A stretch of 64,000 nt of DNA from Rubrivivax sp. (GTDB lineage Bacteria; Pseudomonadota; Gammaproteobacteria; Burkholderiales; Burkholderiaceae_C): NCBI GenBank assembly GCA_051861265.1, contig JBHYDA010000013.1:54208-118207 (forward strand), given 5' to 3'. Shown here in pieces: positions 14,691 through 40,928 of this stretch (position 1 is the stretch's first letter; every line of letters begins with the position of its first letter). The translations under genes and the position numbers were made by a program. The notes beneath the pieces are model-generated. The model searched no databases. It had not been told where the DNA came from and was given only the letters and a program-made list of their open reading frames with translations.

Positions 14691-15455
14691 ATGGCCGCAC
14701 CCAGCATCGCGCAGATCCTCTTCAGCCAGGGCTTCGGCAACCGGCGCGTGTGCGCAGGCCTGGTGCAGTTCGGCCATGTGCGTGTGGCCGGGCGTGTGCT
14801 CGACGACCCGAGCGAGTCCTTCGACACCGAGGGCCTGGTCTTCGAGGTCGAGGGCCAGGCCTGGGCCTTCCACGCCAAGGCGCTGCTGATGCTGCACAAG
14901 CCTGCGGGCTACGAGTGCAGCCAGAAACCCCGTCACCACCCCAGCGTGATGAGCCTGCTGCCCGCGCCGCTGCGCACCCGCGGCGTGCAGCCCGTGGGCC
15001 GGCTGGACGAAGACACCACGGGCCTGCTGCTCTTCACCGACGACGGCGCGCTCATCCACCGCCTCACCAGCCCCAAGCACCACGTCGACAAGGTCTACGA
15101 GGTGTTCACCAAACACCCGCTGGACGAGACCCAGCTGCAGCGCCTGCGCGAAGGCGTGGTGCTCGACGACGACCCGGCGCCGGTGCGCGCCGTGGCCGCT
15201 GTTCAGGTGGCCGAGCAACACCTGCAGCTGACGCTGGGCGAAGGCAAGTACCACCAGGTCAAGCGCATGCTGGCAGCCGTGAGCAACCGCGTGGAAAGCC
15301 TGCACCGCAGCCGCTTCGGGCCCTGGGTGCTGCCCGAGAAGTTGGCGCCGGGGCAATGGGCCTGGGTCGATGCGGGCGCCCTGCCCGCGCCAGTCAAGGC
15401 CCCGCCGCCCGGCCCTGCCGCTTCAGGTTCCGCTGCGCCAGGCGCGCCCGGTTGA
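14691..15455 (+). CDS. rsuA: 16S rRNA pseudouridine(516) synthase
   Basis: HKPAGYECS, GRLDEDTTGLLL, EGKYHQVKRM. Confidence 0.9.
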   Translation: MAAPSIAQILFSQGFGNRRVCAGLVQFGHVRVAGRVLDDPSESFDTEGLVFEVEGQAWAFHAKALLMLHKPAGYECSQKPRHHPSVMSLLPAPLRTRGVQPVGRLDEDTTGLLLFTDDGALIHRLTSPKHHVDKVYEVFTKHPLDETQLQRLREGVVLDDDPAPVRAVAAVQVAEQHLQLTLGEGKYHQVKRMLAAVSNRVESLHRSRFGPWVLPEKLAPGQWAWVDAGALPAPVKAPPPGPAASGSAAPGAPG

Positions 15456-16551
15456 AGGCGCGCAGCCGGCCCAGGCTGCTCTCGGCCAGCGCCGCGCCCA
15501 CGTCTTGCAGCCGCTGCACGAGGGTCGGCAACGGCAAGGTGTGCGCCGCGCGCTGTTGCCGGGCCAGGGTCAGCACTTCGCGCCAGGCCGCGAGGTTCTT
15601 GTCCAGGCCGTGCTGCCGCTGCACCTCGTCTCTCGCCGCGGTCGCCACGCGCAGGCGGGTAGCGGGGTTGTCGATCACCGCGCGGAGCGCCGTTTCCCAG
15701 GCGACCGCCGTGTTCGGCACCAACCAGCCGTTGTGGCCGTCGGCCACCACCTCGGCATAGGGGCTGACGGCCGAACACAGCGTGGGCACGCCCGCGCCGG
15801 CCAGGTAGAGCCACTTGACCGCGCTCTTGCCCGCTGCGAAACGGCTGTCCTCCAAAGGCACCACGCCCACCGGGTTGGGCAGGCTTCTCGCGAAATCCAG
15901 GAAGGCTGCGCGCGGCATCAAGGCGTGGCGCTGCACTTGCAGGCCGGCGGCTTCAAAGGCCGCGCCGGGCGGGCCCACCACCACCAAGCGGAGCTCGGCC
16001 TGCGCCTGCTGCAAGGCGCGCAGGGCCGGGAAGATGGCGTCCACCGCCAGGTGTTCGGTGGATGCAAAAAGCAGGCTCACCGGTCCCTCGGTCTGCGCCG
16101 GCAGCGGCAGCGCGTCGGGCGGCAGCGCGTGGTTGGGCACCACCACGGCCGGGGGCAAGGCCAGGCTTTCGGCCAGCATCTGCTGCAGCCGCGCGGTGCT
16201 GACGCTCAGCGCGTCGCTCTCGGCCAGGCAGCGCGGCAGCCAGCGCAGCTGCGCCGCCACGGCGGCCTGGTTGCTGATGTGCGGCGGCAGTTCGGTCAGC
16301 AGGTCGTCGATGTCGTAGACCACCGCGCCGCCGCGCTGGCGCATCCAGCGCTGCAGCCGCCACGCGCGGGCGTTCAAGCCGCGCTGCACCACCAGCACGT
16401 CGGCCGCCGCCAGATCGGCGCGCGTGCAATCGTGGAAGCTGCGTTGCACCAGCGTGTGCCCGTCGGCATCGGCCAGCGCCTGCAGCGGCGAGGCCACGCG
16501 GATCTGCGCGACCAGCGCCGTGATGTCGCCTGCCAGCGCGAGCAGCTTCAC
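15394..16551 (-). CDS. Glycosyltransferase, GT-B / GT4-like
   Basis: GTG overlaps the methyltransferase stop; VYDIDDLL, KSAVKW, GVPTLCSAVSPY, GHNGWLV. Confidence 0.75.
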   Translation of the reverse strand: MKLLALAGDITALVAQIRVASPLQALADADGHTLVQRSFHDCTRADLAAADVLVVQRGLNARAWRLQRWMRQRGGAVVYDIDDLLTELPPHISNQAAVAAQLRWLPRCLAESDALSVSTARLQQMLAESLALPPAVVVPNHALPPDALPLPAQTEGPVSLLFASTEHLAVDAIFPALRALQQAQAELRLVVVGPPGAAFEAAGLQVQRHALMPRAAFLDFARSLPNPVGVVPLEDSRFAAGKSAVKWLYLAGAGVPTLCSAVSPYAEVVADGHNGWLVPNTAVAWETALRAVIDNPATRLRVATAARDEVQRQHGLDKNLAAWREVLTLARQQRAAHTLPLPTLVQRLQDVGAALAESSLGRLRAFNRARLAQRNLKRQGRAAGP

Positions 16552-17129
16552 TTCTTCGCCTCGAACTCCCAGATCAAATGCCCGCAGGCCCCACGGCGGA
16601 TGCGGTGCGCCAGGCGCACCCGCTCCCACCAGCCCTGCGGCGGCGGGATGAACGCGCGCTGCGCATCGGGCTTGGTCAGCTGCACGCGCCGCACCTCGAA
16701 ATCACCCTGGAAGCCGTACATCGCCGCCAGCCGCTGCGGCCGTGTGAAGTAGGTGTGGGTGTCTTTCGTCATGATGTTCACGTGCGTCGGGTCCATGAAG
16801 GCGGCCGCGCTCGGGAACACCGGCGTGATGGCGTAGAGCAAGCCGCCCGGCTTCAACACACGCCAGACCTCGTTCATCAGCTCGATGAAGGGGAAACGTG
16901 TGCCCTGGCCGTCGGCCGTGGGCAGCACGCGCGGGATGTGCTCGAGGAAATCGTAGGCCGAAGCCGAATCGAAGCTGTTGCTATCGAAGGGGATGGGCTG
17001 CGTGGCCAGGTTGGCGCGGCGGATGGAGCCGCTGTCGTCGCCCGAAAGATCGACGCCGCAGAGCTCGTCGCGGCCATAGGGGTTGCGCGGGATGGGGCCG
17101 CAGCCCAGGTCGAGGTGGCGGGTGCTCAT
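16548..17129 (-). CDS. Class I SAM-dependent methyltransferase (glycan-locus type)
   Basis: HLDLGCG motif I, YDFLEHI, EVWRVLKPGG, DPTHVN. Confidence 0.85.
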   Translation of the reverse strand: MSTRHLDLGCGPIPRNPYGRDELCGVDLSGDDSGSIRRANLATQPIPFDSNSFDSASAYDFLEHIPRVLPTADGQGTRFPFIELMNEVWRVLKPGGLLYAITPVFPSAAAFMDPTHVNIMTKDTHTYFTRPQRLAAMYGFQGDFEVRRVQLTKPDAQRAFIPPPQGWWERVRLAHRIRRGACGHLIWEFEAKK

Positions 17130-17962
17130 CGTGGGCGGGCCCCAGGGGTGACGAAAGACTGCGCTGCGGCCAGCCAGCCCAAGGTGCGGGTGTTGATGTC
17201 GCGCCGGCCTGCTGCTCGCCGCCGGCGCAGCAACTCGGTGGCAGCCGTGGGCATGCGCTGCGCCAGCAGCGCACGCGCCAGGCGGCGTGCGTCGCGGCTG
17301 CGGAAGAAGGCGTCGGGCAGCTGCGGCAGCCAGGCCAGCAGCGTGTTTTCGTCCAGCACACGCGGCAGGTTGTAGGGGCCGTGGAAGCCGAACACCTGCC
17401 CGCGCGGCGGGCGGTTCTCGAAGGCGAAGCGCTGAGCCAGCGCAGGCGGCGCAAAACGCACGCCGTGGTCGGTTTCCAGCATGGCGCGGTGGGTGGTGCC
17501 GAGCACCACGTCTTCCGGGTGCAGCTCGGTGATGCGCGCGTCACGCCCGGCCTGCAGCAGCTTCTGCGAACGCAGCGAAAAGCCACCGTTGCCGACGTTG
17601 CGGCCTTCGGGCTGGTCGGGCCACACGGCGCCGATGTAGTCCCATTGCAGGAACTCGTCGGTCCACGCTTCGGGCTGGCGCACGAAGCCGTCCCACTGCG
17701 TCACCAGCACGAAGGGTGTGTGGATGTGGGCCGGGAGCTCGTGCAGCACAAATCGCGAGTAGTCGGCGCCCGAGGTGATCTCGTCGATCTCCACCACCTC
17801 GATGCCGGGCAGGGCTTGCGGCGGCACCCAGCCCCGCGTGAACAGCAGCACGCGTCCGAAATCGATGCCGGCCATCGAGTGCCGCAGCGATTGCGCGGCC
17901 AAGGCCGGTGCCCGTGTGTCCACGATGCACAGGCTCACCTGGGGCAGGGCCAGTCGCTTCAT
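17126..17962 (-). CDS. DUF5672-family protein (putative glycosyltransferase)
   Basis: TQWDGFV, WDYIGAVW, VGNGGFSLRS, PEDV, FGFHG motifs; start taken at ATG 17962. Confidence 0.75.
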   Translation of the reverse strand: MKRLALPQVSLCIVDTRAPALAAQSLRHSMAGIDFGRVLLFTRGWVPPQALPGIEVVEIDEITSGADYSRFVLHELPAHIHTPFVLVTQWDGFVRQPEAWTDEFLQWDYIGAVWPDQPEGRNVGNGGFSLRSQKLLQAGRDARITELHPEDVVLGTTHRAMLETDHGVRFAPPALAQRFAFENRPPRGQVFGFHGPYNLPRVLDENTLLAWLPQLPDAFFRSRDARRLARALLAQRMPTAATELLRRRRAAGRRDINTRTLGWLAAAQSFVTPGARPR

Positions 17963-18021
17963 GGCGGCGCATTGTGCCGGCAAGGCTGCTGGCGGCTTGA
18001 GGCCGTGGCTACACTGCCGGC

Positions 18022-19071
18022 ATGTTCGACCCTCCTTCAAATGGCCGCACGGTGCGCGCCCGAGCGCCGCTGCGCCTGGGCTTGGCCGGCGGCGGCACCG
18101 ATGTTTCGCCCTATTGCGACCAGCATGGCGGTTACGTCCTCAACGCCACCATCGACCGCTACGCGTATGCGGTGCTTCGCGAGCTGGACCGCCCCTGCAT
18201 CCGGCTCGTTGCGGCAGACCAGAACCTGGCGGTGGAACTGCCGCTTGACGACCCCTTGTTGCCCGAGGGCGACCTGAAGCTGCACAAGGCGGTGGTCAGC
18301 GCGCTCGTGAAGCAGCACCATGGTGGCGTCAGGGTGCCGATGGAGCTGGTGTCCTTCTGCGATGCGCCCGTGGGCTCTGGTCTGGGCGCGTCGTCCACGC
18401 TGGTCGTGGCGATGATCCGGGCCTACACAGAACTCTGGAACCTGCCGCTGGATGATTACGCGCTGGCACACCTCGCGTTTTCGATCGAACGTGTCGACTG
18501 CGGCCTGGAAGGTGGGCGGCAAGACCAGTACTCGGCAGCCTTCGGCGGCTTCAACTTCATGGAGTTCTATGCCGATGAGCGCGCCGTCATCAACCCGCTG
18601 CGCGTCAAGCCCTGGGTGGTGTCGGAACTCGAAGCCTCGCTGGTGTTGTTCTACACCGGTGTGTCGCGCGAGTCGGCCCGCATCATTGCCGACCAGAGCA
18701 GCGGCATCAGGGCCGGCAATGCCGATGCGATGCAGGCCATGCACGGCTTGAAGCGCGAGGCGCTGGTGATGAAAGAGTGCCTGCTGCGCGGCGATGTCAA
18801 GGGCCTTGTCGCTTCGATGCGTGAAGGCTGGGAAAGCAAGAAGCGCTCGGCCCGCACGGTCTCCAACCCGCACATCGAAGCCATCTACGACGCTGCGGTG
18901 GCCGCCGGCGCGCTGGCCGGCAAGGTGTCGGGCGCCGGGGGCGGCGGCTTCATGATGTTCTTCGTGCCGCCCGAACGCCGCATGGACGTCATCCGCGTTC
19001 TCCAGGGCTTCGAGGGCCAGATCAGCAACTGCCACTTCACCGAAGCGGGCAGCCAAGCATGGAGGGTGTGA
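18022..19071 (+). CDS. hddA: D-glycero-alpha-D-manno-heptose 7-phosphate kinase (GHMP family)
   Basis: APLRLGLAGGGTD, PVGSGLGASS, GGRQDQYSAAFGG, KVSGAGGGG. Confidence 0.9.
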   Translation: MFDPPSNGRTVRARAPLRLGLAGGGTDVSPYCDQHGGYVLNATIDRYAYAVLRELDRPCIRLVAADQNLAVELPLDDPLLPEGDLKLHKAVVSALVKQHHGGVRVPMELVSFCDAPVGSGLGASSTLVVAMIRAYTELWNLPLDDYALAHLAFSIERVDCGLEGGRQDQYSAAFGGFNFMEFYADERAVINPLRVKPWVVSELEASLVLFYTGVSRESARIIADQSSGIRAGNADAMQAMHGLKREALVMKECLLRGDVKGLVASMREGWESKKRSARTVSNPHIEAIYDAAVAAGALAGKVSGAGGGGFMMFFVPPERRMDVIRVLQGFEGQISNCHFTEAGSQAWRV

Positions 19072-19655
19072 TGCAAGCCTATATCGAGGCGCAACTCGCG
19101 CGCTCTCAAGAAATGCTGCAGGCGGTGGTGGCTGACACAGCCTTGCAGGCCGCACTGGCGGCGGCGGCACAGGCCAGCATCCAGGCTTTGCGCCAAGGCG
19201 GCAAGCTTCTCTTCGCCGGCAACGGCGGCAGTGCGGCAGACGCCCAGCACATGGCCGGCGAGTTCGTCAGCCGTTTCGAGTTCGACCGCCCGGGCCTGGC
19301 CGCCGTGGCGCTGACCACCGACACCTCCATCCTCACGGCCATCGGCAACGACTACGGCTACGAGCGTGTTTTCGCGCGTCAGGTGCAGGCCCTGGGGCGC
19401 CCCGGCGACGTGCTGGTGGCCTACTCGACATCGGGCCGCAGCCCCAACATCCTGCGCGCGCTGGAAGCCGCCCGGACGCAAGGCCTGGTGACCGTGGGCA
19501 TGACCGGCAACCGCGGCGGCCCCATGCCCGCGCTGTGCGATCACGTGCTGGCGGTTCCCAGCCCCGACACCCCCAAGATCCAGGAAGGCCACCTCGTGCT
19601 GGGCCACATCCTCTGCGGGCTGGTGGAGCGGGCGCTGTTCACACCTGCGGCCTGA
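19071..19655 (+). CDS. gmhA: Phosphoheptose isomerase
   Basis: GNGGSAADAQH, AIGNDYGY, STSGRSPN, IQEGH. Confidence 0.95.
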   Translation: MQAYIEAQLARSQEMLQAVVADTALQAALAAAAQASIQALRQGGKLLFAGNGGSAADAQHMAGEFVSRFEFDRPGLAAVALTTDTSILTAIGNDYGYERVFARQVQALGRPGDVLVAYSTSGRSPNILRALEAARTQGLVTVGMTGNRGGPMPALCDHVLAVPSPDTPKIQEGHLVLGHILCGLVERALFTPAA

Positions 19656-20353
19656 TGGAGGCCGTGGTTCTGGCCGGCGGCTTCGGCACGCGGCTGCGCA
19701 GCGTCGTACCGGATCTGCCCAAGCCCATGGCGCCGGTGGCGGGCCGGCCCTTCCTGGAGATCTTGCTGCACAGCCTGGCGCAACGCGGCGTTGAACGCGC
19801 GGTGCTGTCGCTGGGGTACCGGGCTGAACTCATCCAGGCCCACTTCGGCCCGCACTACGCCGGCATGGAGATCGTCTGCGAGGTGGAGACACAGCCGCTG
19901 GGCACCGGTGGCGCGCTGATGCGCAGCCTGCGCCGCTGCCACGGCGAAGTGGCCCTGGTCGTCAACGGCGACACCTTCCTCGATCTGAACCTGCAGGCCG
20001 TGGCACGCCAATGGCAGACCCAGCAGCGCCCGATCATCGTCGGCCGGCAGGTCGCCGACACCGCCCGCTACGGCCGCCTGCGCGTGGCCGAGGGCCTGGT
20101 GACCGCCTTCGAAGAAAAGGGGGCCAGCGGGCCCGGCCTCATCAACACCGGCCACTACCTGCTGCCCACCGATCTCTTGGAAGGGCAGTCGCTGCCGCCG
20201 GCGTTTTCGTTCGAGAGCGAGTTCATCGTGCCGCGGCTGGACACCCTGTGCCTGGCTGCCTTCGAGACGCAGGGCCTGTTCATCGACATCGGTGTGCCCG
20301 AGGACTACCACCGCGCGCAGATCGAACTGGCGCCGCACGCCCGCTTCGCATGA
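19655..20353 (+). CDS. hddC: D-glycero-alpha-D-manno-heptose 1-phosphate guanylyltransferase
   Basis: LAGGFGTRLRS, PKPMAPVAGRPFL, PLGTGGA, VNGDT, FIDIGVPEDY; position in the hddA-gmhA cluster. Confidence 0.85.
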   Translation: MEAVVLAGGFGTRLRSVVPDLPKPMAPVAGRPFLEILLHSLAQRGVERAVLSLGYRAELIQAHFGPHYAGMEIVCEVETQPLGTGGALMRSLRRCHGEVALVVNGDTFLDLNLQAVARQWQTQQRPIIVGRQVADTARYGRLRVAEGLVTAFEEKGASGPGLINTGHYLLPTDLLEGQSLPPAFSFESEFIVPRLDTLCLAAFETQGLFIDIGVPEDYHRAQIELAPHARFA

Positions 20354-20925
20354 CCCGGGCGCTGCTGCTTGATCGCGATGGCGTGATCAATGTTGATCAC
20401 GGTTATGTGCACAAACCCGAGTCCTTCGAGTTCATGCCCGGCATCTTCGAGTTCTGCCGCGGGGCGCAGGCGCTCGGCTACCTGCTGGTGGTGGTGACCA
20501 ACCAGGCCGGCATCGGCCGGGGCCATTACACGGAAGACGACTTCGCCGCCCTCACCCGCTGGATGCTGCTGCGCTTCGAGCAGGCGTCAGCGCCTATCGC
20601 CCGGGTGTACCACTGCCCCACGCATCCGAGTGCTGGCCTCGGCCACCACCGAGTGGACTCGCCCAGGCGCAAACCGGCACCCGGCATGATCTACGACGCA
20701 CGCGACGACCTGGGCCTCGACCTCGCGCGCTCGGCGCTCATCGGCGACAAGCCCAGCGATGTGCAGGCCGCGTACACCGCGGGCGTCGGCTTGCGCATGC
20801 TGCTGACCGTGCCGACTTGTGCTGCCGACAGCCTGCCGCCCGGCACTTGCCAGGTGCCCGACTTCCTCGCCGCGGCAGCGGCCTTGCAGGCCTTCACGGC
20901 CGAGAACCCCAGCACCTTGCCATGA
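20350..20925 (+). CDS. gmhB: D,D-heptose 1,7-bisphosphate phosphatase (HAD)
   Basis: DRDGVIN, TNQAGIGRG, CPTHP, RKPAPGM, IGDKPSD. Confidence 0.9.
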   Translation: MTRALLLDRDGVINVDHGYVHKPESFEFMPGIFEFCRGAQALGYLLVVVTNQAGIGRGHYTEDDFAALTRWMLLRFEQASAPIARVYHCPTHPSAGLGHHRVDSPRRKPAPGMIYDARDDLGLDLARSALIGDKPSDVQAAYTAGVGLRMLLTVPTCAADSLPPGTCQVPDFLAAAAALQAFTAENPSTLP

Positions 20926-22001
20926 GCTCGCAGCTTCGTCACATCGCCATCAGCCTGGGCAACATCGGCACGCTGCAAGACGGCCTGGGCGAGTTCGCCT
21001 TGCAGATGGGGCAGCGTGTGGCGCGCGAGGCGGCCCTCTGGCGCGAACGCGATCAGGTGTGTTTTCACTTTCACTTGCGCGAGCGCTTCGTTGGCCTCTT
21101 CGGCACCGATGTCGGTTACCTGCCGGTCACGCGCTGGCACCGTTGGCGCCACGTTCAAGCGCAGCGCTTCGAGCTGTGGCACTCGCTCCACCAACTCAAC
21201 AAGAACCTGCCGCCCGCAGGCTGCGGCTCACGTCTTGTGACGGTGCACGACCTGAACTACCTGGTGGACAAGCAGGGGTTCGCGCGCTGGCGCAGCCACC
21301 GGCGGGCCCTGGCGATGATGCGGCGCACCGACCACGTCATTGCGATCAGCCAGTACAGCGCGGCCGACGTGCGCAAGCACCTCGGCTGGACCGGTCCGCT
21401 GGACGTGATCCTCCGCGGCGCCCGCGACTTCTCCCGCACGCCGCAAGCGCCGCTGCCGGGCTGGGCGGCCGATGACACACGGCCTTTCCTCTTTCACCTC
21501 AGCCGCATGTCGGCCTCGAAGAACCCGCAGGCCTTGGTCGGGCTGGCGCAGGCATGGCCCGAGATGAACTTCATCTTCAGCGGGCCGCCCAGCGACGAGG
21601 CGCAGCACCTGCGCGCGACGGTCAAGCTGCCCAACGTCCAGTTCCATCTGGGCATCAGCGATGAGCAGAAGGCCTGGGCCTACGCCAACTGCCAGGGTTT
21701 CCTGTTCCCGTCGTTTGCCGAGGGCTTCGGTCTCCCGCCCGTGGAAGCGATGCAGTTCGGCCGGCCTGTGTTTCTGAGCCGGCTGACCAGCCTGCCCGAG
21801 ATCGGCGGCGAGGTGGCCGACTACTTTGACGATTTCTCGCCCCTGGCCATGCGCCGAGCAGTTGAACGAGGCTTGCTGCGGGCACGCGAGCCGAGTCGGT
21901 TAGCGACCATTCGCCAGCACGCCAAGAGCTTTGATAGCGACGTTGTGGCCGGACAGTACTTGGCGCTCTATCGGCGCCTTCTTCATTTACGGAGTTTCTA
22001 G
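20922..22001 (+). CDS. Glycosyltransferase family 4 (paralog A)
   Basis: TVHDLNY, FPSFAEGFGLPPVEAM, SLPEIGG. Confidence 0.9.
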   Translation: MSSQLRHIAISLGNIGTLQDGLGEFALQMGQRVAREAALWRERDQVCFHFHLRERFVGLFGTDVGYLPVTRWHRWRHVQAQRFELWHSLHQLNKNLPPAGCGSRLVTVHDLNYLVDKQGFARWRSHRRALAMMRRTDHVIAISQYSAADVRKHLGWTGPLDVILRGARDFSRTPQAPLPGWAADDTRPFLFHLSRMSASKNPQALVGLAQAWPEMNFIFSGPPSDEAQHLRATVKLPNVQFHLGISDEQKAWAYANCQGFLFPSFAEGFGLPPVEAMQFGRPVFLSRLTSLPEIGGEVADYFDDFSPLAMRRAVERGLLRAREPSRLATIRQHAKSFDSDVVAGQYLALYRRLLHLRSF

Positions 22002-23560
22002 ATAGACGCCCAAAGCTGATAACTTCAGAAATCCTTACAGAACAACAACTCTGGCGCCAGCGGTTTACAACTGATGCGTGTTGCCCCCGCCCCCGCCGCC
22101 GCCAGGAGCCGATCCGCCCCCAGGAGAGGATCCTCCGCCTCCTGGTGCACCTGCGGCGCCTACTCCACCGCCGTCACCGAAGACAACTCGGTAGTCATAC
22201 CGGCACTCGATCACTGCGCAGAGCCGCTGGTACCAAGGCAGCTCGCTTGCCGGTGACCAACGGGCTCTGTTACCGTAAAGAACAAGATTACCGTCCGTCT
22301 GAAGCAGCAATTCCACACCCGGACCGTATCCGTCGGTGTTTGATGCCCAATTTGCATTATTGAAACTGTCGTACAATACGAAGTTGCCGTCTGTTTGGAC
22401 AACTGCGCGCTCGCCTCTTCCACCCGTCGCCCACAAAACCACCCCGGGGTACCGAGACAGCACCAAGTTGCGGTCTGACTGAAGCGTCAACGAAAAGTAG
22501 CCGCTTGGGTCATAGTAAGTTTGACCCACGCTAATGCTGCGAATTGGCACCGGATCAGCAAACCCGCCCCCGTAGGGTGGCTGATTTGTGTTACTTGCCC
22601 AAAGGGCGGCTCTGGAGTAAACAACGAAGTTGCCGTCACTCTGTAGACGCGCGAACGCACTCGGCCCGTAGCCGTTCGTGTTAGACGCCCACAACGGATA
22701 TCGGTCCGACCTGTATACGACAAGGTTTCCATCCGGCTGCATCTCCAAATAAGCGCCAGGGTTGCCTGCCGTATTGCTTGTCCATCGGATCCGCAGTACT
22801 GTGAAGTTTGGGTCGTAAGTCGAAAGCACGAGATTGCCGTCTGTCTGCATCGCCAAGTTGGCAACCGTGCGGGTGTTTATGATTTGAGTGCCAGCTTGAT
22901 TGTACTGATACGACTGCGCAACAGCAATGTCTCCCGGCATTAGTCTCTGCCCAGATTTGAGAACAAACTCGCCATTCGGATCCATCCGCAGTGTGTATGC
23001 CTGGCAAGCATAAACTTGGAAGAATAAGAACAATGCAGCAATTAACAATCTCATGAATGCTCCCTGATGGTTATTGAGTCTAATGAGTCTGCGTCTCTTG
23101 TCGCTTCAAAGCCTTCCTTGATCCGCGCTTGGCTTCCCCATGCCTACAGCTAGTTAGCGGACTGAATCTCGCTCCGATACCGTCAGACCCTTATGCGCAA
23201 AGAGGTCATATCAAACCACCTTTGGCTGAAACCCTTTCGGCTTCGCTTGTAGGTAAGTCGCAGGATGTTGATCGGGCCCAACTGCTCACTGGCGAGATGG
23301 ACGGGAGCATCGCATGAGGCAAGCTGCAAGGCACCTGTAAACCCTTACATCATCAAAACGGAAATGCTCGATCTTGAGCGATGCGGATACTTCACCTGCG
23401 ACTCATTTGCCAGCTGGCAGCTCGCACCCCTCTTTGGGCGCTCCGACACGAGCACGTTTCATCACTGCAGTCGTAGAGAGGCTTGGTAGATGACTATCAG
23501 TTCCGAAGCGCGTAAGCACATCCTCATTAGCATTGGCCGATCCGGCCCCGGGGACGGCGG
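21830..23560. other. AT-richer, probably horizontally acquired segment (boundaries approximate)
   Basis: Visible loss of the G/C-ending codon bias seen elsewhere; begins inside the 3' end of GT4-A and fades inside the 5' end of GT4-B. Confidence 0.7.
22065..23054 (-). CDS. Secreted tandem bulb-type (MMBL / B-lectin) protein, LlpA lectin-like bacteriocin architecture
   Basis: Six QxDxNxV(x)Y-type motifs (QTDGNLVLS, QPDGNLVVY, QSDGNFVVY, QSDRNLVLS, QTDGNFVLY, QTDGNLVLY), repeated W(A/T)SNT, signal peptide, AGGGAG SD, Gly-rich tail. Confidence 0.85.
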   Translation of the reverse strand: MRLLIAALFLFFQVYACQAYTLRMDPNGEFVLKSGQRLMPGDIAVAQSYQYNQAGTQIINTRTVANLAMQTDGNLVLSTYDPNFTVLRIRWTSNTAGNPGAYLEMQPDGNLVVYRSDRYPLWASNTNGYGPSAFARLQSDGNFVVYSRAALWASNTNQPPYGGGFADPVPIRSISVGQTYYDPSGYFSLTLQSDRNLVLSRYPGVVLWATGGRGERAVVQTDGNFVLYDSFNNANWASNTDGYGPGVELLLQTDGNLVLYGNRARWSPASELPWYQRLCAVIECRYDYRVVFGDGGGVGAAGAPGGGGSSPGGGSAPGGGGGGGNTHQL

Positions 23561-24575
23561 CATCTTCGAGTTCTCGTCGCAGATCGTGCAGCGCATCGCT
23601 GCGGCGGCGCCTGCTTGGCGCGAGCGTGATGGCGTGAGATTCACGGTGCACCTGCGGCCGGAGTTGCAAGGCGTGTTTGGCCCTGACGTGGCTTACCTGC
23701 CTTTGCGCGCGGTGCAACGGTGGATGCACCTGAGCCCGCAGCCCTTCGAGCTGTGGCACACGACGCACCAGATGAACAAGATGCGGCCGCCACGCGGTTG
23801 CCGCGCCCGATTGACCACCGTTCACGACCTCAACTACCTCTACGGCCGCAACGCCTTCTCGCGCTGGCGCCACCAAAGCCGCATGCTCACGCTGATGGCG
23901 CGCACAGACCACGTGGCGGCCATCAGCCAGCACACCGCCGGCGACGTGCGGCGCGAGCTGGGCTGGGCCGGGCCGATGGACGTGATCTACAACGGCGCGC
24001 GCAGCTTCGTCGCCGCCGAACGCGCGCCGCTGCCGGGCTGGGCGGCGGTGGCTGAGCGCCCTTTCCTCTTCCACCTCAGCCGCATGTCGCCCAGCAAGAA
24101 CCCGCAGGCGGTGCTGGACCTGGCGCGTGCCTGGCCTGAGATGACGTTCGTGCTGTGCGGCCCGCCCAGCGACGACGCCAAGGCGCTGAAGGCCGCCAAC
24201 CGCCAGCCCAATGTGCAGTTCCACCTGGGCATCAGCGATGCGCAGAAGGCCTGGGCCTACGCCAACTGCGCCGGCTTCCTCTTCCCCTCGCTCACCGAAG
24301 GTTTCGGCCTGCCGCCCATCGAGGCCATGCACTTCGGCAAGCCTGTCTTCCTGGCGCGGCGCACCTGCCTGCCCGAAATTGGTGGAGATGCCGCCAGCTA
24401 CTTCGACAGTTTCGAAGCCCAAGCGATGAAGGCTGTCGTGCAGCAGGGCCTGCTGCGCCACGCCGAACCCGGCAGGCCCGAGGCGGTGCGCGAGCACGCC
24501 GCGCAGTTCAACTGGGACGATGCCGCAGCGGCCTACCTGGCGCTCTACCGCCGGCTGCTGGGCCTGCCGGGATAA
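23490..24575 (+). CDS. Glycosyltransferase family 4 (paralog B)
   Basis: TVHDLNY, FPSLTEGFGLPPIEAM; closely similar to 20922..22001. Confidence 0.9.
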   Translation: MTISSEARKHILISIGRSGPGDGGIFEFSSQIVQRIAAAAPAWRERDGVRFTVHLRPELQGVFGPDVAYLPLRAVQRWMHLSPQPFELWHTTHQMNKMRPPRGCRARLTTVHDLNYLYGRNAFSRWRHQSRMLTLMARTDHVAAISQHTAGDVRRELGWAGPMDVIYNGARSFVAAERAPLPGWAAVAERPFLFHLSRMSPSKNPQAVLDLARAWPEMTFVLCGPPSDDAKALKAANRQPNVQFHLGISDAQKAWAYANCAGFLFPSLTEGFGLPPIEAMHFGKPVFLARRTCLPEIGGDAASYFDSFEAQAMKAVVQQGLLRHAEPGRPEAVREHAAQFNWDDAAAAYLALYRRLLGLPG

Positions 24576-24600
24576 TCGGCCGCTCATTCTTCGGGCTTCT

Positions 24601-25572
24601 ATGCAGATCCAACGCGGCTGGCGCCGCCCCGGCACCGCCGGCTGCGCCATCACCATCGGCAATTTCGACGGCGTGCACCGCGGCCACCAGGCCATGCTGG
24701 CACTGCTGATCAGCGAAGCCCGTCACCGTGGCCTGCCCAGCTGCGTGATGACCTTCGAGCCGCACCCGCGCGACCACTTCGCACGCCAGGCGGGCAAGCC
24801 CGAGGCCGCCCCGGCGCGCATCGGCACGCTGCGCGACAAGCTCTGCGAGCTGCAGCGCTGCGGCGTGGACGAGGTGGTGGTGCTGCCCTTCAACCAGGCC
24901 TTCGCGGCGATGCAGCCGCAGGCCTTCATCGACGAGGTGCTGCGCGACGGCCTGCGCGCGAAGTACGTGCTGGTCGGCGACGACTTCAACTTCGGCGCCC
25001 GCCGCGCCGGCAGTTACGCGATGCTGGATGCGGCCGGGCCCGCTGTGGGCTTCGACGTGGCGCGCATGAACAGCTACGAGGTGCACGGCCTGCGCGTTTC
25101 CAGCTCGGCCGTGCGCGAGGCGCTGGCGCGCGGCGACATGCGCCAGGCCGAGGCCCTGCTGGGCCGGCCCTATGCCATCAGCGGCCACGTGCTGCACGGC
25201 CGCAAGCTCGGCCGCGAGCTGGGCTTCCGCACGCTGAACCTGCGTTTTGCGCACGCCCGGCCGGCCGCCAGCGGCATCTTCGTCGTGCGCGTGCACGGCC
25301 TGGACAGCGGCCCGCTGCCCGGCGTGGCCAGCCTGGGCGTGCGCCCCACGGTGGAAGACGCCGGCCGGGTGCTGCTGGAGGTGCATTGCCTGCACTGGCC
25401 AGCGGCGCTGGGTGAGAACGGCGGCTATGGCCGCTTGCTGCGCGTGGAGTTGCTGCACAAGCTGCACGACGAGCTGAAGTACGACGGGCTTCAAGCGCTG
25501 CAGGAAGGCATTGCGCGCGACACCGAGGCCGCGCGCAGCTGGTTGCGCGCTGCGGGCGATGCCCGCGTCTAA
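24601..25572 (+). CDS. ribF: Bifunctional riboflavin kinase / FAD synthetase
   Basis: IGNFDGVHRGHQ, FEPHP, VGDDFNFG, SSSAVR, GRELGFRTLN, GVRPTV. Confidence 0.95.
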   Translation: MQIQRGWRRPGTAGCAITIGNFDGVHRGHQAMLALLISEARHRGLPSCVMTFEPHPRDHFARQAGKPEAAPARIGTLRDKLCELQRCGVDEVVVLPFNQAFAAMQPQAFIDEVLRDGLRAKYVLVGDDFNFGARRAGSYAMLDAAGPAVGFDVARMNSYEVHGLRVSSSAVREALARGDMRQAEALLGRPYAISGHVLHGRKLGRELGFRTLNLRFAHARPAASGIFVVRVHGLDSGPLPGVASLGVRPTVEDAGRVLLEVHCLHWPAALGENGGYGRLLRVELLHKLHDELKYDGLQALQEGIARDTEAARSWLRAAGDARV

Positions 25573-34055: not shown

Positions 34056-34149
34056 GCCGGGCCTCCCCGCATGGAAGCGCGCCCAACCGGGTCAGGTGGG
34101 GAACCAAGCAGCCCTTAGCGTTGCAACCAGTGCCGGGGTCAGGCTCGGC
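34056..34149 (+). ncRNA. ffs: Signal recognition particle 4.5S RNA
   Basis: Domain IV TCAGG-TGG-GGAA-CCA-AGCAGC with a GGAA tetraloop; 5' GCCGGGCCT pairs with 3' AGGCTCGGC; near dnaX. Confidence 0.93.
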
Positions 34150-34197
34150 ACCCTTCCCCGACGGTCCACCACCGCACCGGCATTGGCCGTCAGCCTT

Positions 34198-36594
34198 TCA
34201 GGCTTGGCCCTTTGCGAAGGCCGCCGTGGCTTGGTCGCGCAAGGCGCGCAGCAGGCTGAGTTCAGCCTCCCCCACGACGATGCTGCCGGCTTCGGCCTTG
34301 TCGGCGTAGATCAGCCCGATGGGCTGGCCCTTCAGCATCAGCGGCAAGAGCAGGAAGGTCGGCGCGTTCACCTTCTGCCGGTACCAGGCCGGCAAGCGGT
34401 TGGCCACGGTCTTGGCATCGCTCACCAGCAGGTCGGCGCCCTTGGCGCAGAGCACGCCGAAGAGATCGGTGGCGGCGCTGGCGTCGGGCTGTATGCGGAA
34501 GGCCGCACTCAGTTCGCTGCCGCCCGGCCCGAGCGCGATGCGGCCCACCAGCCGCGGTTGCCCCACTTCGCGCAGGCACAGCACCACGTGCCGGAAGCCC
34601 ATGGCCTTGTGCATGGCGTTCAGCACCATCGGCAGCACCTCGCCCAGGCGCATGGACTTGCTGGACAGCACCGCACGCAGGTCTTCGAGCGACTTCGCCA
34701 TCAGGCTTTGCGCACCCTCTGAGGGCAGCACCAGGGTGGGCGCCTCGTCGCCGCGCAAGGGCATGGCTTCGCTGACCTGCGTGTCTTCCAGCAGGCGGCG
34801 CGCCGGGGCGCCAGGCGCCACGTTCACGCCCATGGCCGTGGCCAGTGCATTCAGGTGCACGCGCGTGGCGTAGGCGGCGTTGACCATGTCGCGCGGGCTC
34901 AGACCCAAGGCCGGGCCGTAGAGCTCGGCCGCCTTCAGCAAGGCACCGGCCTGCACATCGCCGTCACTGCCCAGCATGGCATCGGACATCGCGTTGGCTG
35001 CGCGGGCCAGCCAGCGCAGCCGTTCGGCGCCGCGCGCCAGCGCCTTGGAGGGCGACGGGCCGGCAGGCGAACGCATCGCGGTCTGCAGGCCTTCAGGCAG
35101 GCCCCAGGCCTGCGCGACGCCGGCGCCCAGTTCATCCAGGCTCAAGCCCAGGATCCGCTTCGCCGCCGCTTCGCGCGCCACGTGCGACGCGGCCGAGGTG
35201 AGATCGCCGCGCAGCGCCTGGCGGATCTGGATGCCTTCCTCGGGCAGGTAGCACTCGGTCAGCAGGCGCCCCAGGTTCTGGAACATCGCGCCGATGAAGG
35301 CTTCTTCGCCCTCACGCACGGTGGTCGTCATCTCGTCGGCCAGCGTGCCGGCCATCAGGGCGCGCAGGAACTCTTCTTTCAGCAGCGCGGCGTGCGCCTT
35401 GTCCGTCATGTGCTCGAGCAGCACCACCGACAAGGCCATGTTGCGGATGCCCGCGAAACCCACCAGCGCCACCGCGCGCGACACCGTGGCGATGCCGCCG
35501 CCGGCCGCCGCTGTGAAGTGGGCCGTGTTGACCATGCGCAGCAGCTTGTTCGTCAGCGCCACGTCCTTGAGGATCTCGTCGCTGAGTGCCTTGAGGCTCT
35601 CGGTCTCCGATGTCGCCACCTTCTGGATGCGGACGATGCTGCTGCCCAACGCCGGGAAGTCGGTCTTGTGGCGCATGCGCCGCAGCAGGAATTCGAGCGT
35701 CGCGTGGCTGCTGCCGGCATCGGGCTCGGCCGCGCCTTGAGGCTGCAGCCAGGCTCGCAAGGCGGTCTGCATCGAGCGGGCGCTGTCGTAACGCGCCGCC
35801 ACGTCGCGCGTGATGGCGCGCTGCACGATGCCGCGCAGGGTCTCGTCGACCTTGGCGCTCTCCGGCAGCACGAGATCCTCGCGCTGCACGCGCTCGACCG
35901 CGCGGTACGGGTCGATCTCGCGCATCAGCGGCACGCCGGCCAGCAGTTCGCCCAGCATCACACCGGCCGCGAAGACGTCCATCGCCGGCACCGGCGCCTC
36001 GCCCCGTGCGGCCTCGGGCGAGATGTAGCCGGGCGTGCCCATGATGCGGCCGTCGTTGGCATCCAGCACCAGCGTCGCTCCGCGGCGTCCGCCAGCGCGC
36101 CGCGGTGGCGCCACGCGGCCGGCAATGCCGAAGTCCATCACCCGCGCCCGGCCGTCGCTGCCGAGCAGGATGTTCGAGGGCTTCAGGTCGCGGTGCACGA
36201 TGCCTTGTTCGTGCGCGGCGGCCAGCGCGTCCAGCACGCCGATCATCATTTCGACCGCCTGCTTGGCGGGCATCGGCGGTTGGCCGCGCCGCGCCTGCGC
36301 CAGCGTGGGGCCCTCGACGTACTCGAAGACGAGATAGGGCTGGCCCTCATACTCGTCGGCTTCGAACACCGGCACCACGTTCGGGTGGCTCAGGCGGCTG
36401 ACGGCACGGGCCTCGTGCAGCCACATATTCACGGCGTCGGCGTCGGCCTCGGCGTCCATGAGCTTGAGCGCCACTTCGCGGTCGAGCCGCGGGTCGTGGG
36501 CCAGCCACACGCGCGCCTGCGCGCCGCGGCCCAGTTCGCGCAGCAGTTCGAAACGTGCCAGGCTGCCGTAGCCGGCGCTGGTGGCTGCGCTCAC
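34198..36594 (-). CDS. Hanks-type Ser/Thr kinase + HDOD + C-terminal GAF-like domain
   Basis: LGRGAQ, VALK, HRDLKPSNIL, DFG, GTPGYISPE; HDOD signature KDVALTNKLLRMVN. Confidence 0.9.
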   Translation of the reverse strand: MSAATSAGYGSLARFELLRELGRGAQARVWLAHDPRLDREVALKLMDAEADADAVNMWLHEARAVSRLSHPNVVPVFEADEYEGQPYLVFEYVEGPTLAQARRGQPPMPAKQAVEMMIGVLDALAAAHEQGIVHRDLKPSNILLGSDGRARVMDFGIAGRVAPPRRAGGRRGATLVLDANDGRIMGTPGYISPEAARGEAPVPAMDVFAAGVMLGELLAGVPLMREIDPYRAVERVQREDLVLPESAKVDETLRGIVQRAITRDVAARYDSARSMQTALRAWLQPQGAAEPDAGSSHATLEFLLRRMRHKTDFPALGSSIVRIQKVATSETESLKALSDEILKDVALTNKLLRMVNTAHFTAAAGGGIATVSRAVALVGFAGIRNMALSVVLLEHMTDKAHAALLKEEFLRALMAGTLADEMTTTVREGEEAFIGAMFQNLGRLLTECYLPEEGIQIRQALRGDLTSAASHVAREAAAKRILGLSLDELGAGVAQAWGLPEGLQTAMRSPAGPSPSKALARGAERLRWLARAANAMSDAMLGSDGDVQAGALLKAAELYGPALGLSPRDMVNAAYATRVHLNALATAMGVNVAPGAPARRLLEDTQVSEAMPLRGDEAPTLVLPSEGAQSLMAKSLEDLRAVLSSKSMRLGEVLPMVLNAMHKAMGFRHVVLCLREVGQPRLVGRIALGPGGSELSAAFRIQPDASAATDLFGVLCAKGADLLVSDAKTVANRLPAWYRQKVNAPTFLLLPLMLKGQPIGLIYADKAEAGSIVVGEAELSLLRALRDQATAAFAKGQA

Positions 36595-38390: not shown

Positions 38391-38605
38391 GGCAAGGCAA
38401 TTGAAACCTGTGGCCAGCACCGACCAAGCCCGGAACAACGCGGTTTCCAACCGGCAGTTCCCTCGCGAGAGCGGTGCCGCAGGCTATCGGCACGATCGGC
38501 AGATTCACAGGCGCGCGGGTCGGTGGGCCAGAGGGGATGTGACAAAATCCAGCCGGCTGCATGTCCGCACCGGTCGTGCCTGGTGCCGCAGCCCCGGAGA
38601 CCCCC

Positions 38606-40793: not shown

Positions 40794-40825
40794 GTCTGTG
40801 GCCGCTGGCCACCGCTCGGAACATC

Positions 40826-40850
40826 AAAGGCAGCTTCGGCTGCCTTTTTT
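40826..40850 (+). terminator. Intrinsic terminator after rpmE
   Basis: AAAGGCAGC-TTCG-GCTGCCTTT followed by a T-run. Confidence 0.9.
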
Positions 40851-40928
40851 GTCGCCTGCGCAGCCCCTGCTCGCCGGGCCTGGCCTTCGGCGGCCGATGG
40901 CCTGCGCTTCGCTAGCATCGCCCTTGCC

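What the first reader, a model, noticed from the sequence alone, without database searches (positions are those of the whole stretch)
22065..23054. LlpA-like tandem lectin (candidate lectin-like bacteriocin) embedded in a heptose-glycan locus
Seen: a Sec-type signal peptide, two B-lectin domains of three QxDxNxVxY sites each (the first site of each domain has Tyr replaced by Ser), then an aromatic/Cys-pair extension (WYQRLCAVIEC) and a Gly-rich tail. Known: LlpA bacteriocins of Pseudomonas, Xanthomonas and Burkholderia have tandem MMBL domains, dock on D-rhamnose-containing LPS and kill via BamA without a cognate immunity protein. Inference: either a bacteriocin whose producer is protected by, or targets, the glycan made by the surrounding genes (weapon and shield linked), or a lectin that binds and organises the cell's own heptose glycan. 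A heptose-binding B-lectin would be new to my knowledge.
Basis: partly seen in the sequence, partly recalled or inferred. Interest (0 to 1): 0.72.

Follow-up and report, generated by a model that had tools for sequence, protein, structure and literature searches.

The report
Orphan secreted tandem lectin, bacteriocin-like
A freshwater Rubrivivax-like bacterium carries a foreign 1.5-kb DNA insert with one gene for a secreted double lectin built like the lectin-like bacteriocins that kill rival bacteria; it sits inside a sugar (heptose) operon only because it was dropped there later, not because the two belong together.

Summary
ORF 22065-23054 (- strand, 329 aa) encodes five parts in order:
- a Sec signal peptide;
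- two B-lectin domains with six QxDxNxVx[Y/S] sites, the only six in the whole 64-kb window;
- a 26-residue Cys-pair C-terminal peptide;
- a 37-residue Gly-rich tail.

The architecture matches lectin-like bacteriocins (Llp/LlpA). Membership of that clade could not be shown. The nearest relatives outside a tiny family of about 8 metagenome sequences are generic bacterial B-lectin modules. The curated LlpA model does not discriminate between these groups.

The glycan-linkage idea is not supported.
- A 92.6%-identical relative (L196) and a second lineage (L197/198) carry the same hddA-gmhA-hddC-gmhB-GT4a-GT4b operon with the two GT4 genes abutting and no lectin.
- The window has 1,540 bp (21983-23522; lectin-gene GC3 0.59 against 0.84-0.95 in neighbouring genes) where L196 has 42 bp.
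- Family members elsewhere sit next to unrelated genes.

Best reading (about 0.5): an orphan, horizontally acquired, immunity-less lectin bacteriocin candidate. Docking on a manno-type glycan and BamA inhibition by the C-terminal peptide are inferred, not shown.

Verdict: a new variant of a known kind, of moderate interest.

The parts
22065..23054 (-). Lectin gene, 329 aa: signal peptide, two B-lectin domains, C-terminal peptide, Gly-rich tail
   Evidence: ORF. Pfam B_lectin. PDB sequence hits to GNA, pyocin L1/L2 and putidacin L1. AF2 pLDDT 80 overall. Foldseek top hits are tandem MMBL proteins. Identical protein on 3 metagenome contigs.
22998..23054 (-). Sec-type signal peptide, residues 1-19, predicted cleavage ACQA|YT
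   Evidence: Sequence. Homologs have AxA at the same position. Predicted helix at 2-14. Cleavage is inferred, not shown.
22575..22997 (-). N-terminal B-lectin domain (residues 20-160) with sites III-N (Y>S), II-N and I-N, plus a family-specific variable hairpin at about residues 41-66
   Evidence: Motifs at 22821-22847, 22713-22739 and 22617-22643. pLDDT 81-98. Residues 41-60 are the least conserved part of the domain within the family.
22257..22562 (-). C-terminal B-lectin domain (residues 165-266) with sites III-C (QSDRNLVLS), II-C and I-C
   Evidence: Motifs at 22455-22481, 22371-22397 and 22275-22301. Sites II-C and I-C are invariant in all six full-length family members.
22179..22256 (-). 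26-residue non-lectin C-terminal peptide SPASELPWYQRLCAVIECRYDYRVVF. It has invariant W274, Y275, C279, I282, C284 and Y288, and an alternating aromatic/hydrophobic end Y-R-V-V-F.
   Evidence: Family alignments. A profile of this piece finds only family members among 1.84 billion representatives. AF2 confidence is low here, pLDDT 50-60.
22068..22178 (-). 37-residue Gly/Ser/Pro-rich tail, predicted disordered. A shorter tail of the same kind occurs in P0004 and P0121; the tail is absent from 5 of 8 family members.
   Evidence: pLDDT below 50. Tail GC3 is 0.54, like the rest of the gene, so it came with the gene and is not read-through into host DNA.
21983..23522 (.). Foreign insert of 1,540 bp: lectin gene plus 82 bp of 3' flank and 468 bp of 5' flank. 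It takes the place of a 42-bp GT4a/GT4b junction.
   Evidence: blastn against L196: window 18541-21982 matches L196 1-3442 (92.6%), and window 23523-24317 matches L196 3485-4279 (90.8%). Junction alignment. Lectin GC3 0.59 and intergenic GC 0.54, against GC3 0.84-0.95 in neighbours.
18022..20925 (+). Context: hddA (18022-19071), gmhA (19059-19655), hddC (19655-20353) and gmhB (20350-20925). This is the GDP-D-glycero-alpha-D-manno-heptose pathway; stops and starts overlap.
   Evidence: Pfam. NCBIfam best hits are HddA, GmhA, HddC and GmhB. GmhB passes its cut-off; the others are clear best hits below the equivalog cut-offs.
20922..22001 (+). Context: GT4a, the glycosyltransferase that travels with the heptose operon. 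Its last ~6 codons and its stop codon are supplied by the insert.
23490..24575 (+). Context: GT4b, the resident GT4 found upstream of ribF-ileS in most of the 80 related genome loci. Its start codon and first ~11 codons are supplied by the insert.

Best explanation
The gene encodes a Sec-exported protein made of two GNA-type (B-lectin, beta-prism II) domains followed by a short conserved C-terminal peptide. This is the architecture of lectin-like bacteriocins (Llp/LlpA, L-type pyocins).

It arrived as a single-gene, 1.54-kb piece of lower-GC foreign DNA. That piece landed between two formerly translationally coupled GT4 genes of a pre-existing heptose-glycan operon.

Most likely mode of action:
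1. After signal-peptide removal, and probably C279-C284 disulfide formation, the protein is released.
2. It docks through its conserved mannose-type sites on a manno-configured surface glycan of related Burkholderiales. Sites II-C and I-C are invariant in the family.
3. By analogy with Llps, it engages BamA and inserts its amphipathic C-terminal strand (..Y-x-[V/T]-x-F) against BamA beta-strand 1, blocking outer-membrane protein assembly.
4. The producer needs no immunity gene.

Shown: gene, domains, motifs, family, foreign origin, insertion site, and lack of conserved neighbours.

Inferred: export beyond the periplasm, sugar specificity, killing, and the BamA step.
For: [quoted passage not shown]

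The family profile's best solved-structure matches by sequence are pyocin L1/L2 at E about 1e-32. Foldseek top hits include pyocin L1 and LlpA.

Burkholderia and Xanthomonas LlpAs also carry Sec signals (PMC6240691, PMC3831624).

[quoted passage not shown] The window protein has Y288-R-V290-V-F292. The 26-residue peptide is conserved in all 8 family members and found nowhere else among 1.84 billion representatives.

Orphan and mobile behaviour:
- A clean insertion relative to L196/L197.
- GC3 0.59 against at least 0.84 in neighbours.
- A second family member (P0004) is likewise a low-GC3 island beside atpC/holA.
- The four contexts share no neighbour.
- Distribution is extremely patchy: absent from 80 related genome loci.

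Many of the nearest non-family homologs are tandem B-lectins fused to lysozymes, CHAP, M23, NlpC/P60 or VanY domains. In bacteria this module therefore often serves as the targeting part of antibacterial enzymes.
Against: There are no functional data.

The sequence is closer to generic bacterial B-lectin tandems (130-250 bits) than to solved Llps (59-75 bits).

The NCBIfam LlpA model scores 132 against a cut-off of 275. That model is in any case non-discriminating.

All six sugar motifs are largely intact. Pseudomonas LlpAs have a degenerate N-domain, which is the BamA-binding part.

The C-terminal motif is low in information and would fit many beta-strands.

In the window protein the motif is followed by a 37-residue tail. 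A C-terminal His tag on pyocin L1 lowers potency, though it does not abolish it.

The conserved CxxxxC element has no counterpart in what the papers read here say about Llp C-terminal peptides.

AF2 gives the peptide low confidence. No promoter-like site was found.
Confidence: 0.5

Rival explanations
1. It is a non-lethal secreted or surface-associated lectin. A multivalent mannose-type agglutinin would serve adhesion, aggregation or biofilm-matrix organisation, or would bind glycans of algae, fungi, grazers or phage, with no bactericidal function.
For: All six QxDxNxVx[Y/S] sites are largely intact, as in plant agglutinins and unlike most LlpA N-domains (PMC6240691). By sequence the lectin domains are as close to snowdrop GNA as to pyocins. 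Foldseek ranks the plant tandem lectin SCAfet equal to pyocin L1 and LlpA. The nearest non-family relatives are generic B-lectin modules.
Against: It does not explain the family-defining conserved 26-residue non-lectin C-terminal peptide. It also does not explain why the gene behaves as a rare single-gene foreign island in two genomes. Every secreted tandem-MMBL protein of Proteobacteria with a C-terminal extension listed as functionally characterised in the 2018 review is a bacteriocin (PMC6240691).
Confidence: 0.3
2. The lectin and the heptose operon are functionally coupled. Either the lectin binds the cell's own D,D-heptose glycan, or the heptose modification masks the producer's receptor so that weapon and shield are linked.
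For: They are physically adjacent. D-glycero-D-manno-heptose is manno-configured, so binding at a GNA-type site is chemically plausible (established lectin chemistry; inference). The insertion separates GT4b-ribF from the operon promoter and rewrites the ends of both GT4 genes, so it could alter the producer's glycan.
Against: The heptose operon with abutting GT4a-GT4b occurs without the lectin in L196 (92.6% nt identity) and in L197/L198. The lectin segment is compositionally foreign while the heptose genes are native-like. The gene is on the opposite strand with its own upstream region. Three of three other family contexts lack glycan genes. The rluA-to-GT4 interval is a generally variable glycan locus, i.e. 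a likely recombination hotspot.
Confidence: 0.1
3. It is a silent or decaying passenger gene. The foreign fragment would be fixed by chance, not expressed, with the Gly-rich tail as a sign of drift.
For: No sigma-70-like promoter was found in the upstream region. Composition is not ameliorated. The tail is absent from most family members.
Against: The 329-codon ORF is intact and has a good Shine-Dalgarno site. An identical sequence occurs in three independent assemblies. All functional motifs and Trp triads are retained. The tail has the same codon-position composition as the gene, and a similar tail occurs in P0004 and P0121.
Confidence: 0.07

Closest known systems
Lectin-like bacteriocins of Pseudomonas (LlpA/putidacin L1, L-type pyocins L1/L2; PDB 3M7H, 4LE7, 9PXI, 9PXJ)
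   Same: Two B-lectin (MMBL) domains with Trp triads, followed by a ~25-30-residue non-lectin C-terminal peptide with alternating aromatic/hydrophobic residues. No immunity gene. Patchy, horizontally moved single genes. The C-domain sugar sites are the best conserved. These are the best solved-structure sequence matches of the family profile.
   Different: Most Pseudomonas Llps lack a signal peptide, and their N-domain motifs are degenerate. Here all six motifs are recognisable. The C-terminal peptide carries an invariant CxxxxC pair. [quoted passage not shown] The window protein adds a 37-residue Gly-rich tail. Identity is only 23-29%.
Sec-dependent LlpAs of Burkholderia cenocepacia (Bcen_1091, LlpA88) and Xanthomonas citri (XAC0868)
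   Same: Burkholderia, like this host, belongs to the Burkholderiales; Xanthomonas is a gamma-proteobacterium. Both have a cleavable Sec signal peptide, tandem MMBL domains and a C-terminal extension. The II-N motif is conserved in the Burkholderia proteins (PMC3831624).
   Different: The host is a Rubrivivax-like freshwater lineage. Receptors for the Burkholderia/Xanthomonas proteins were not yet known as of the 2018 review (PMC6240691).
Plant GNA-type lectins and the two-domain lectin SCAfet (PDB 1JPC/1MSA, 1DLP)
   Same: Same fold and the same three QxDxNxVxY sites per domain. The per-domain sequence similarity is the highest among solved structures.
   Different: Plant lectins have no bacterial signal peptide and no C-terminal peptide (PMC6240691).
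Bacterial B-lectin modules fused to cell-wall hydrolases (GH25, CHAP, M23, NlpC/P60, VanY; albusin-B type) and the lectin-bearing UmbA4 of Streptomyces umbrella toxin particles (PDB 9OEE)
   Same: These are the closest sequence relatives outside the family, at 36-47% identity over the lectin tandem. The lectin tandem is used as a targeting module of antibacterial proteins. 9OEE is a fold hit.
   Different: Those proteins carry an enzymatic or toxin-complex partner. Here the only non-lectin part is a 26-residue peptide plus a tail.

Membership tests
Lectin-like bacteriocin (Llp: LlpA/LlpB/L-type pyocin) | One or two B-lectin (PF01453, beta-prism II) domains | tested here: met
   Pfam 47.6 bits against 32.4. 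Two domains with three motifs each. AF2 domains have pLDDT above 90. Foldseek E about 1e-12 to pyocin L1, LlpA and SCAfet.
Lectin-like bacteriocin (Llp: LlpA/LlpB/L-type pyocin) | Non-lectin C-terminal peptide with an [aromatic/hydrophobic]-x-[aromatic/hydrophobic]-x-[aromatic/His] core that can beta-pair with BamA strand 1 | tested here: inconclusive
   A conserved 26-residue peptide is present, with Y288-R-V290-V-F292 in the window and Phi-x-Y-x-T-x-F in relatives. The motif is low in information. AF2 confidence is low. No complex modelling was possible.
Lectin-like bacteriocin (Llp: LlpA/LlpB/L-type pyocin) | Score above the curated cut-off of NCBIfam NF033557 (putidacin L1 family LLB) | tested here: not met
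   132 bits against a cut-off of 275. Control: generic multi-lectin proteins from Actinobacteria, Chryseobacterium and a fungus score 174-333 bits, so the model mainly counts B-lectin repeats and says little either way.
Lectin-like bacteriocin (Llp: LlpA/LlpB/L-type pyocin) | Phylogenetic placement within the Llp radiation (Pseudomonas, Burkholderia and Xanthomonas clades) | not tested
   Reference Llp sequences could not be obtained: no supplement is held, and no annotated Llp occurs in the plasmid collection. Bit scores indicate the nearest relatives are generic bacterial lectins.
Lectin-like bacteriocin (Llp: LlpA/LlpB/L-type pyocin) | No cognate immunity or partner gene; solitary gene with patchy distribution | tested here: met
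   The insert carries only the lectin gene. The four family contexts share no neighbour. Absent from 80 related genome loci.
Lectin-like bacteriocin (Llp: LlpA/LlpB/L-type pyocin) | Narrow-spectrum killing; BamA loop 6 as specificity determinant; LPS sugar as receptor | not testable with these tools
   Requires protein, strains and resistant mutants.
GNA-type / monocot mannose-binding lectin fold | Three QxDxNxVxY sites per domain and a tryptophan triad | tested here: met
   Four canonical sites plus two with Tyr>Ser. W91/W122/W152 and W208/W236/W266 are conserved across 67 homologs.
GDP-D-glycero-alpha-D-manno-heptose pathway (neighbouring operon) | GmhA isomerase, HddA kinase, GmhB phosphatase and HddC guanylyltransferase encoded together | tested here: met
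   Best NCBIfam hits: HddA 362 bits (cut-off 600), GmhA 210 (276), HddC 188 (300), GmhB 157 (passes 149.6). The four genes have overlapping stops and starts. Enzyme activities were not tested.

The most novel reading that the evidence does not exclude
The family is an independent, very rare lineage of BAM-targeting lectin bacteriocins in Rubrivivax-group Burkholderiales. Its disulfide-stapled C-terminal peptide would be a closer beta-signal mimic than that of Pseudomonas Llps, since it ends exactly on Phe/Tyr-COOH in 5 of 8 members.

In this genome, its insertion between GT4a and GT4b of the heptose operon would additionally re-tune the producer's own surface glycan. That would be self-protection by receptor editing instead of an immunity protein.
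Probability: 0.12. Interest if true: 0.7.

Novelty: new variant of a known kind. Interest (0 to 1): 0.4.

Why it matters
If the protein kills, it would extend BAM-directed lectin bacteriocins beyond Pseudomonas, Burkholderia and Xanthomonas into freshwater Burkholderiales. It would also add a different C-terminal "warhead": Cys-stapled, ending on an aromatic residue, and sometimes followed by a flexible tail. That is useful for understanding which features of the peptide are really required for BamA inhibition.

The locus also offers a natural near-isogenic pair. One strain type has the 1.54-kb insert (this window) and one lacks it (L196). This makes the weapon/shield question directly testable.

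If the protein does not kill, it is a multivalent mannose-type lectin of ordinary kind.

Tried and rejected
- (1) NCBIfam LLB_putidacin as a membership test. The window protein scores below the cut-off. A control showed the model scores any multi-B-lectin protein as high or higher. Rejected as uninformative.
- (2) Foldseek against the PDB. It cannot separate LlpA or pyocin L1 from the plant tandem lectin SCAfet; all give E about 1e-12 with low whole-chain TM-scores of 0.3-0.4.
- (3) Metagenome scan with the family alignment. Only relatives of at most 44% identity came back, and none had the C-terminal peptide.
- (4) Plasmid collection and viral contigs. Only distant generic B-lectin proteins were found. 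There is no evidence that the gene is plasmid- or phage-borne. The Eleftheria terrae hit is a 651-aa protein of different architecture.
- (5) Search for insertion signatures. No target-site duplication or convincing terminal inverted repeats. No tRNA in the window. No flanking DNA similarity between family loci.
- (6) Promoter/terminator scan: no promoter-like site; terminator-like hits were at the chance level.
- (7) Read-through origin of the Gly-rich tail. Rejected because its GC3 (0.54) matches the foreign gene, not host DNA.
- (8) Co-acquisition of the lectin with the heptose operon. This was suggested at first, because all 80 GTDB loci lack both. It was rejected after L196/L197/L198 showed the operon without the lectin.
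The exhaustive representative search was used instead.
- (10) The JGI name "membrane protein YgcG" for the identical protein is most likely a low-complexity match to the Gly-rich tail (inference). It is not a real relationship.
Full report
**1. The observation**

The ORF at 22065-23054 on the - strand encodes 329 aa. An AGGGAG Shine-Dalgarno-like site lies 5 nt before the ATG (sequence).

The protein starts with MRLLIAALFLFFQVYACQA|YT. This has a short charged n-region, a 14-residue hydrophobic core and a small-x-small cleavage site. The five full-length relatives carry AxA at the same position.

A regular-expression scan of all six frames of the 64-kb window finds exactly six matches to Q.D.N.[VI].[YFS], all in this ORF:
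- N-domain: residues 70-78, 106-114 and 138-146
- C-domain: residues 192-200, 220-228 and 252-260

Supporting domain evidence:
- Pfam B_lectin is above its cut-off.
- The two Trp triads are conserved.
- AlphaFold2 models both domains at pLDDT above 90.
- The C-terminal peptide (267-292) gets pLDDT 50-60, and the Gly-rich tail (293-329) gets below 50.

The identical protein is encoded on three independent metagenome contigs.

**2. What the protein is related to**

Among 5.8 billion protein clusters, only five full-length proteins share the whole architecture: P0002-P0005 and P0009, at 42-58% identity.

A profile of the 32 C-terminal residues was searched exhaustively against 1.84 billion representatives. 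It found only family members: P0001, P0005 and two end-of-contig fragments, P0121 and P0122. P0123 also passed E <= 0.001, but it is a repetitive, spurious match. The family therefore has about eight known sequences.

Features shared by the family:
- Motifs II-C and I-C are invariant.
- The consensus peptide is W-Y-x-R-L-C-x-x-I-x-C-x-x-x-Y-x-T-x-F, with W274, Y275, C279, I282, C284 and Y288 invariant.
- Five of eight members end exactly on the last Phe/Tyr.
- The window protein, P0004 and P0121 continue into a Gly/Ser/Pro-rich tail.

The tail's third-codon-position GC (0.54) equals that of the rest of the gene. It therefore belongs to the gene and is not read-through into host DNA.

Outside the family, the next hits are tandem B-lectin modules at 36-47% identity over the lectin part. 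They come mostly from Actinobacteria. Many are fused to GH25 lysozymes, CHAP, M23, NlpC/P60 or VanY domains.

Solved Llps score lower with the single sequence: pyocin L1 about 74 bits and putidacin L1 59 bits, against GNA at 79 bits. With the family profile, pyocins L1/L2 become the best PDB matches at E about 1e-32.

Foldseek puts SCAfet, pyocin L1 and LlpA together at E about 1e-12, with low whole-chain TM-scores. It also hits the lectin-bearing UmbA4 of Streptomyces umbrella toxins.

NCBIfam's putidacin-L1 model gives 132 bits against a cut-off of 275. In a control, generic multi-lectin proteins, including a fungal one, scored 174-333 bits. That model therefore cannot decide membership.

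Net result: the architecture is Llp-like, but clade membership is undetermined.

**3. The surroundings**

The window is core chromosome of a Rubrivivax-like member of the Burkholderiales. The best matches are "beta proteobacterium AAP65" and Rubrivivax MAGs, with IleS at 96% aa identity. Housekeeping genes present include ileS, ribF, recR, rho, ftsH and carAB, together with the SRP RNA.

Gene order around the lectin:
- - strand: a GT, a methyltransferase and DUF5672
- + strand: hddA-gmhA-hddC-gmhB-GT4a, with overlapping stops and starts
- - strand: the lectin
- + strand: GT4b-ribF-ileS

The four heptose genes have HddA, GmhA, HddC and GmhB as their best NCBIfam hits.

**4. History of the locus (the decisive result)**

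In 80 related genome loci, most have DUF5672 or another GT directly upstream of a single GT4, followed by ribF-ileS. None has hddA or the lectin.

The interval between rluA and GT4 varies in content among lineages. Some carry an extra DUF5672, a GT2 or a GT1. It is a variable glycan locus.

Searching with GT4a found two metagenome lineages that do carry the heptose operon:
- L196: GT4a 93% aa identical.
- L197/L198: GT4a 79% aa identical.

In both lineages GT4a is immediately followed by GT4b, and there is no lectin. In L196 the stop and start overlap (TGATG). In L197/L198 the gap is 6 bp.

At the DNA level:
- Window 18541-21982 matches L196 1-3442 at 92.6%.
- Window 23523-24317 matches L196 3485-4279 at 90.8%.
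- So 42 bp in L196 correspond to 1,540 bp (21983-23522) in the window.

That segment contains only the lectin gene, 82 bp of 3' flank and 468 bp of 5' flank. It supplies the last ~6 codons and the stop of GT4a, and the start and first ~11 codons of GT4b.

The segment is compositionally foreign. Lectin GC3 is 0.59 and intergenic GC is 0.54. All neighbours, including the heptose genes, have GC3 of 0.84-0.95.

No target-site duplication, terminal repeats, tRNA or mobility gene was found.

The order of events is therefore:
1. A resident GT4 locus.
2. The heptose operon with GT4a in some lineages.
3. The lectin insertion in this lineage alone.

The insertion splits a formerly translationally coupled operon. 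It leaves GT4b-ribF behind an antisense gene.

**5. Other family members**

- P0002 lies between Trp-halogenase/FkbO genes and three small unknown ORFs.
- P0004 lies upstream of atpC and holA, in a low-GC island: lectin GC3 0.57 against 0.90 in the flanks.
- P0005 lies beside Sel1 and unknown genes.

The four contexts share no neighbour, and no flanking DNA is shared. It also fits a solitary, mobile, immunity-less gene.

**6. Mechanism**

Recent work shows how Llps act. They bind BamA loop 6 with a lectin domain. [quoted passage not shown] Burkholderia and Xanthomonas LlpAs are Sec-dependent.

The window protein has the same parts list. Its peptide ends Y-D-Y-R-V-V-F, a fully alternating amphipathic strand.

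Differences from described Llps:
- An invariant CxxxxC pair, probably a disulfide after export.
- A terminal aromatic residue in most members. [quoted passage not shown]
- Intact N-domain sugar motifs.
- In this protein, a 37-residue flexible tail. A C-terminal His tag on pyocin L1 reduces but does not abolish potency, so a tail is not disqualifying.

I therefore rate the possibilities as follows:
- Horizontally acquired secreted tandem lectin: essentially certain.
- Antibacterial, Llp-type function: about 0.5.
- The BamA strand-1 step specifically: about 0.3-0.35.
- A non-lethal agglutinin or adhesin: 0.3. This is the main rival.
- Functional coupling to the heptose glycan: about 0.1.
- A silent passenger gene: about 0.07.

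**7. Verdict**

Novelty: a new variant of a known kind. It is a rare, distinct family with Llp architecture in a host group outside the three genera (Pseudomonas, Burkholderia, Xanthomonas) in which Llps are described in the papers read here, and it is not demonstrably inside the Llp clade.

Interest is moderate (0.4). The clean insertion and the natural insert-free relative make the open questions easy to test. Nothing here is yet surprising to a specialist without activity data.

Noticed in passing
window 14691-25572; loci L008, L010, L014, L020, L032, L197: The interval between the rluA-like gene and the GT4-ribF-ileS block is a variable glycan locus in Rubrivivax-group genomes. Different lineages carry DUF5672 alone, an extra DUF5672 plus GT2, a GT1, or the heptose operon. 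It behaves like a recombination hotspot for surface-glycan genes.
   Followed up: partly
window 20922-22001 and 23490-24575: GT4a and GT4b are tandem paralogs (60% aa identity, 73-79% nt identity, 2,577 bp apart). GT4a always travels with the heptose operon, so it is the likely heptosyltransferase. The lectin insert rewrote the C-terminus of GT4a and the N-terminus of GT4b, yet left both ORFs intact.
   Followed up: partly
window 23265-23489 (+): A 74-codon ORF lies inside the foreign upstream segment. It ends immediately before the new ATG of GT4b (TAG-ATG). It is Cys-rich, has no obvious membrane segment and was not checked for homologs. It could be spurious, or it could be a leader that now couples translation into GT4b.
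   Followed up: no
L005 1-1304: The family member P0004 sits in a ~50% GC island directly upstream of atpC in a ~70% GC genome. This is a second case of a compositionally foreign single-gene lectin insertion next to housekeeping genes. The contig starts inside the island, so its left border is unknown.
   Followed up: partly
window 34198-36705 and 36591-38483 (-): Two adjacent paralogous genes each encode a Ser/Thr protein kinase domain fused to an HDOD domain.
   Followed up: no
window 40794-42605 (+): A long ORF of about 600 codons encodes a multi-pass membrane protein. It has no Pfam hit at E<=1e-5 and lies in a stretch with strong AT skew (-0.33). By eye it resembles a GT-C/ArnT-like glycosyltransferase, but this was not tested.
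   Followed up: no
L167 5878-7833 (Eleftheria terrae plasmid NZ_CP106952.1): A 651-aa hypothetical protein in another member of the Burkholderiales starts with a tandem B-lectin (38% identity to the window protein). It lies next to two GT4 genes and an epimerase. Its architecture differs and it lacks the C-terminal peptide of the family.
   Followed up: no
window 34056-34152 (+): Bacterial small SRP RNA (Rfam RF00169, 61.9 bits). It is the only Rfam family above its gathering score in the window. No tRNA genes occur in the 64 kb.
   Followed up: yes
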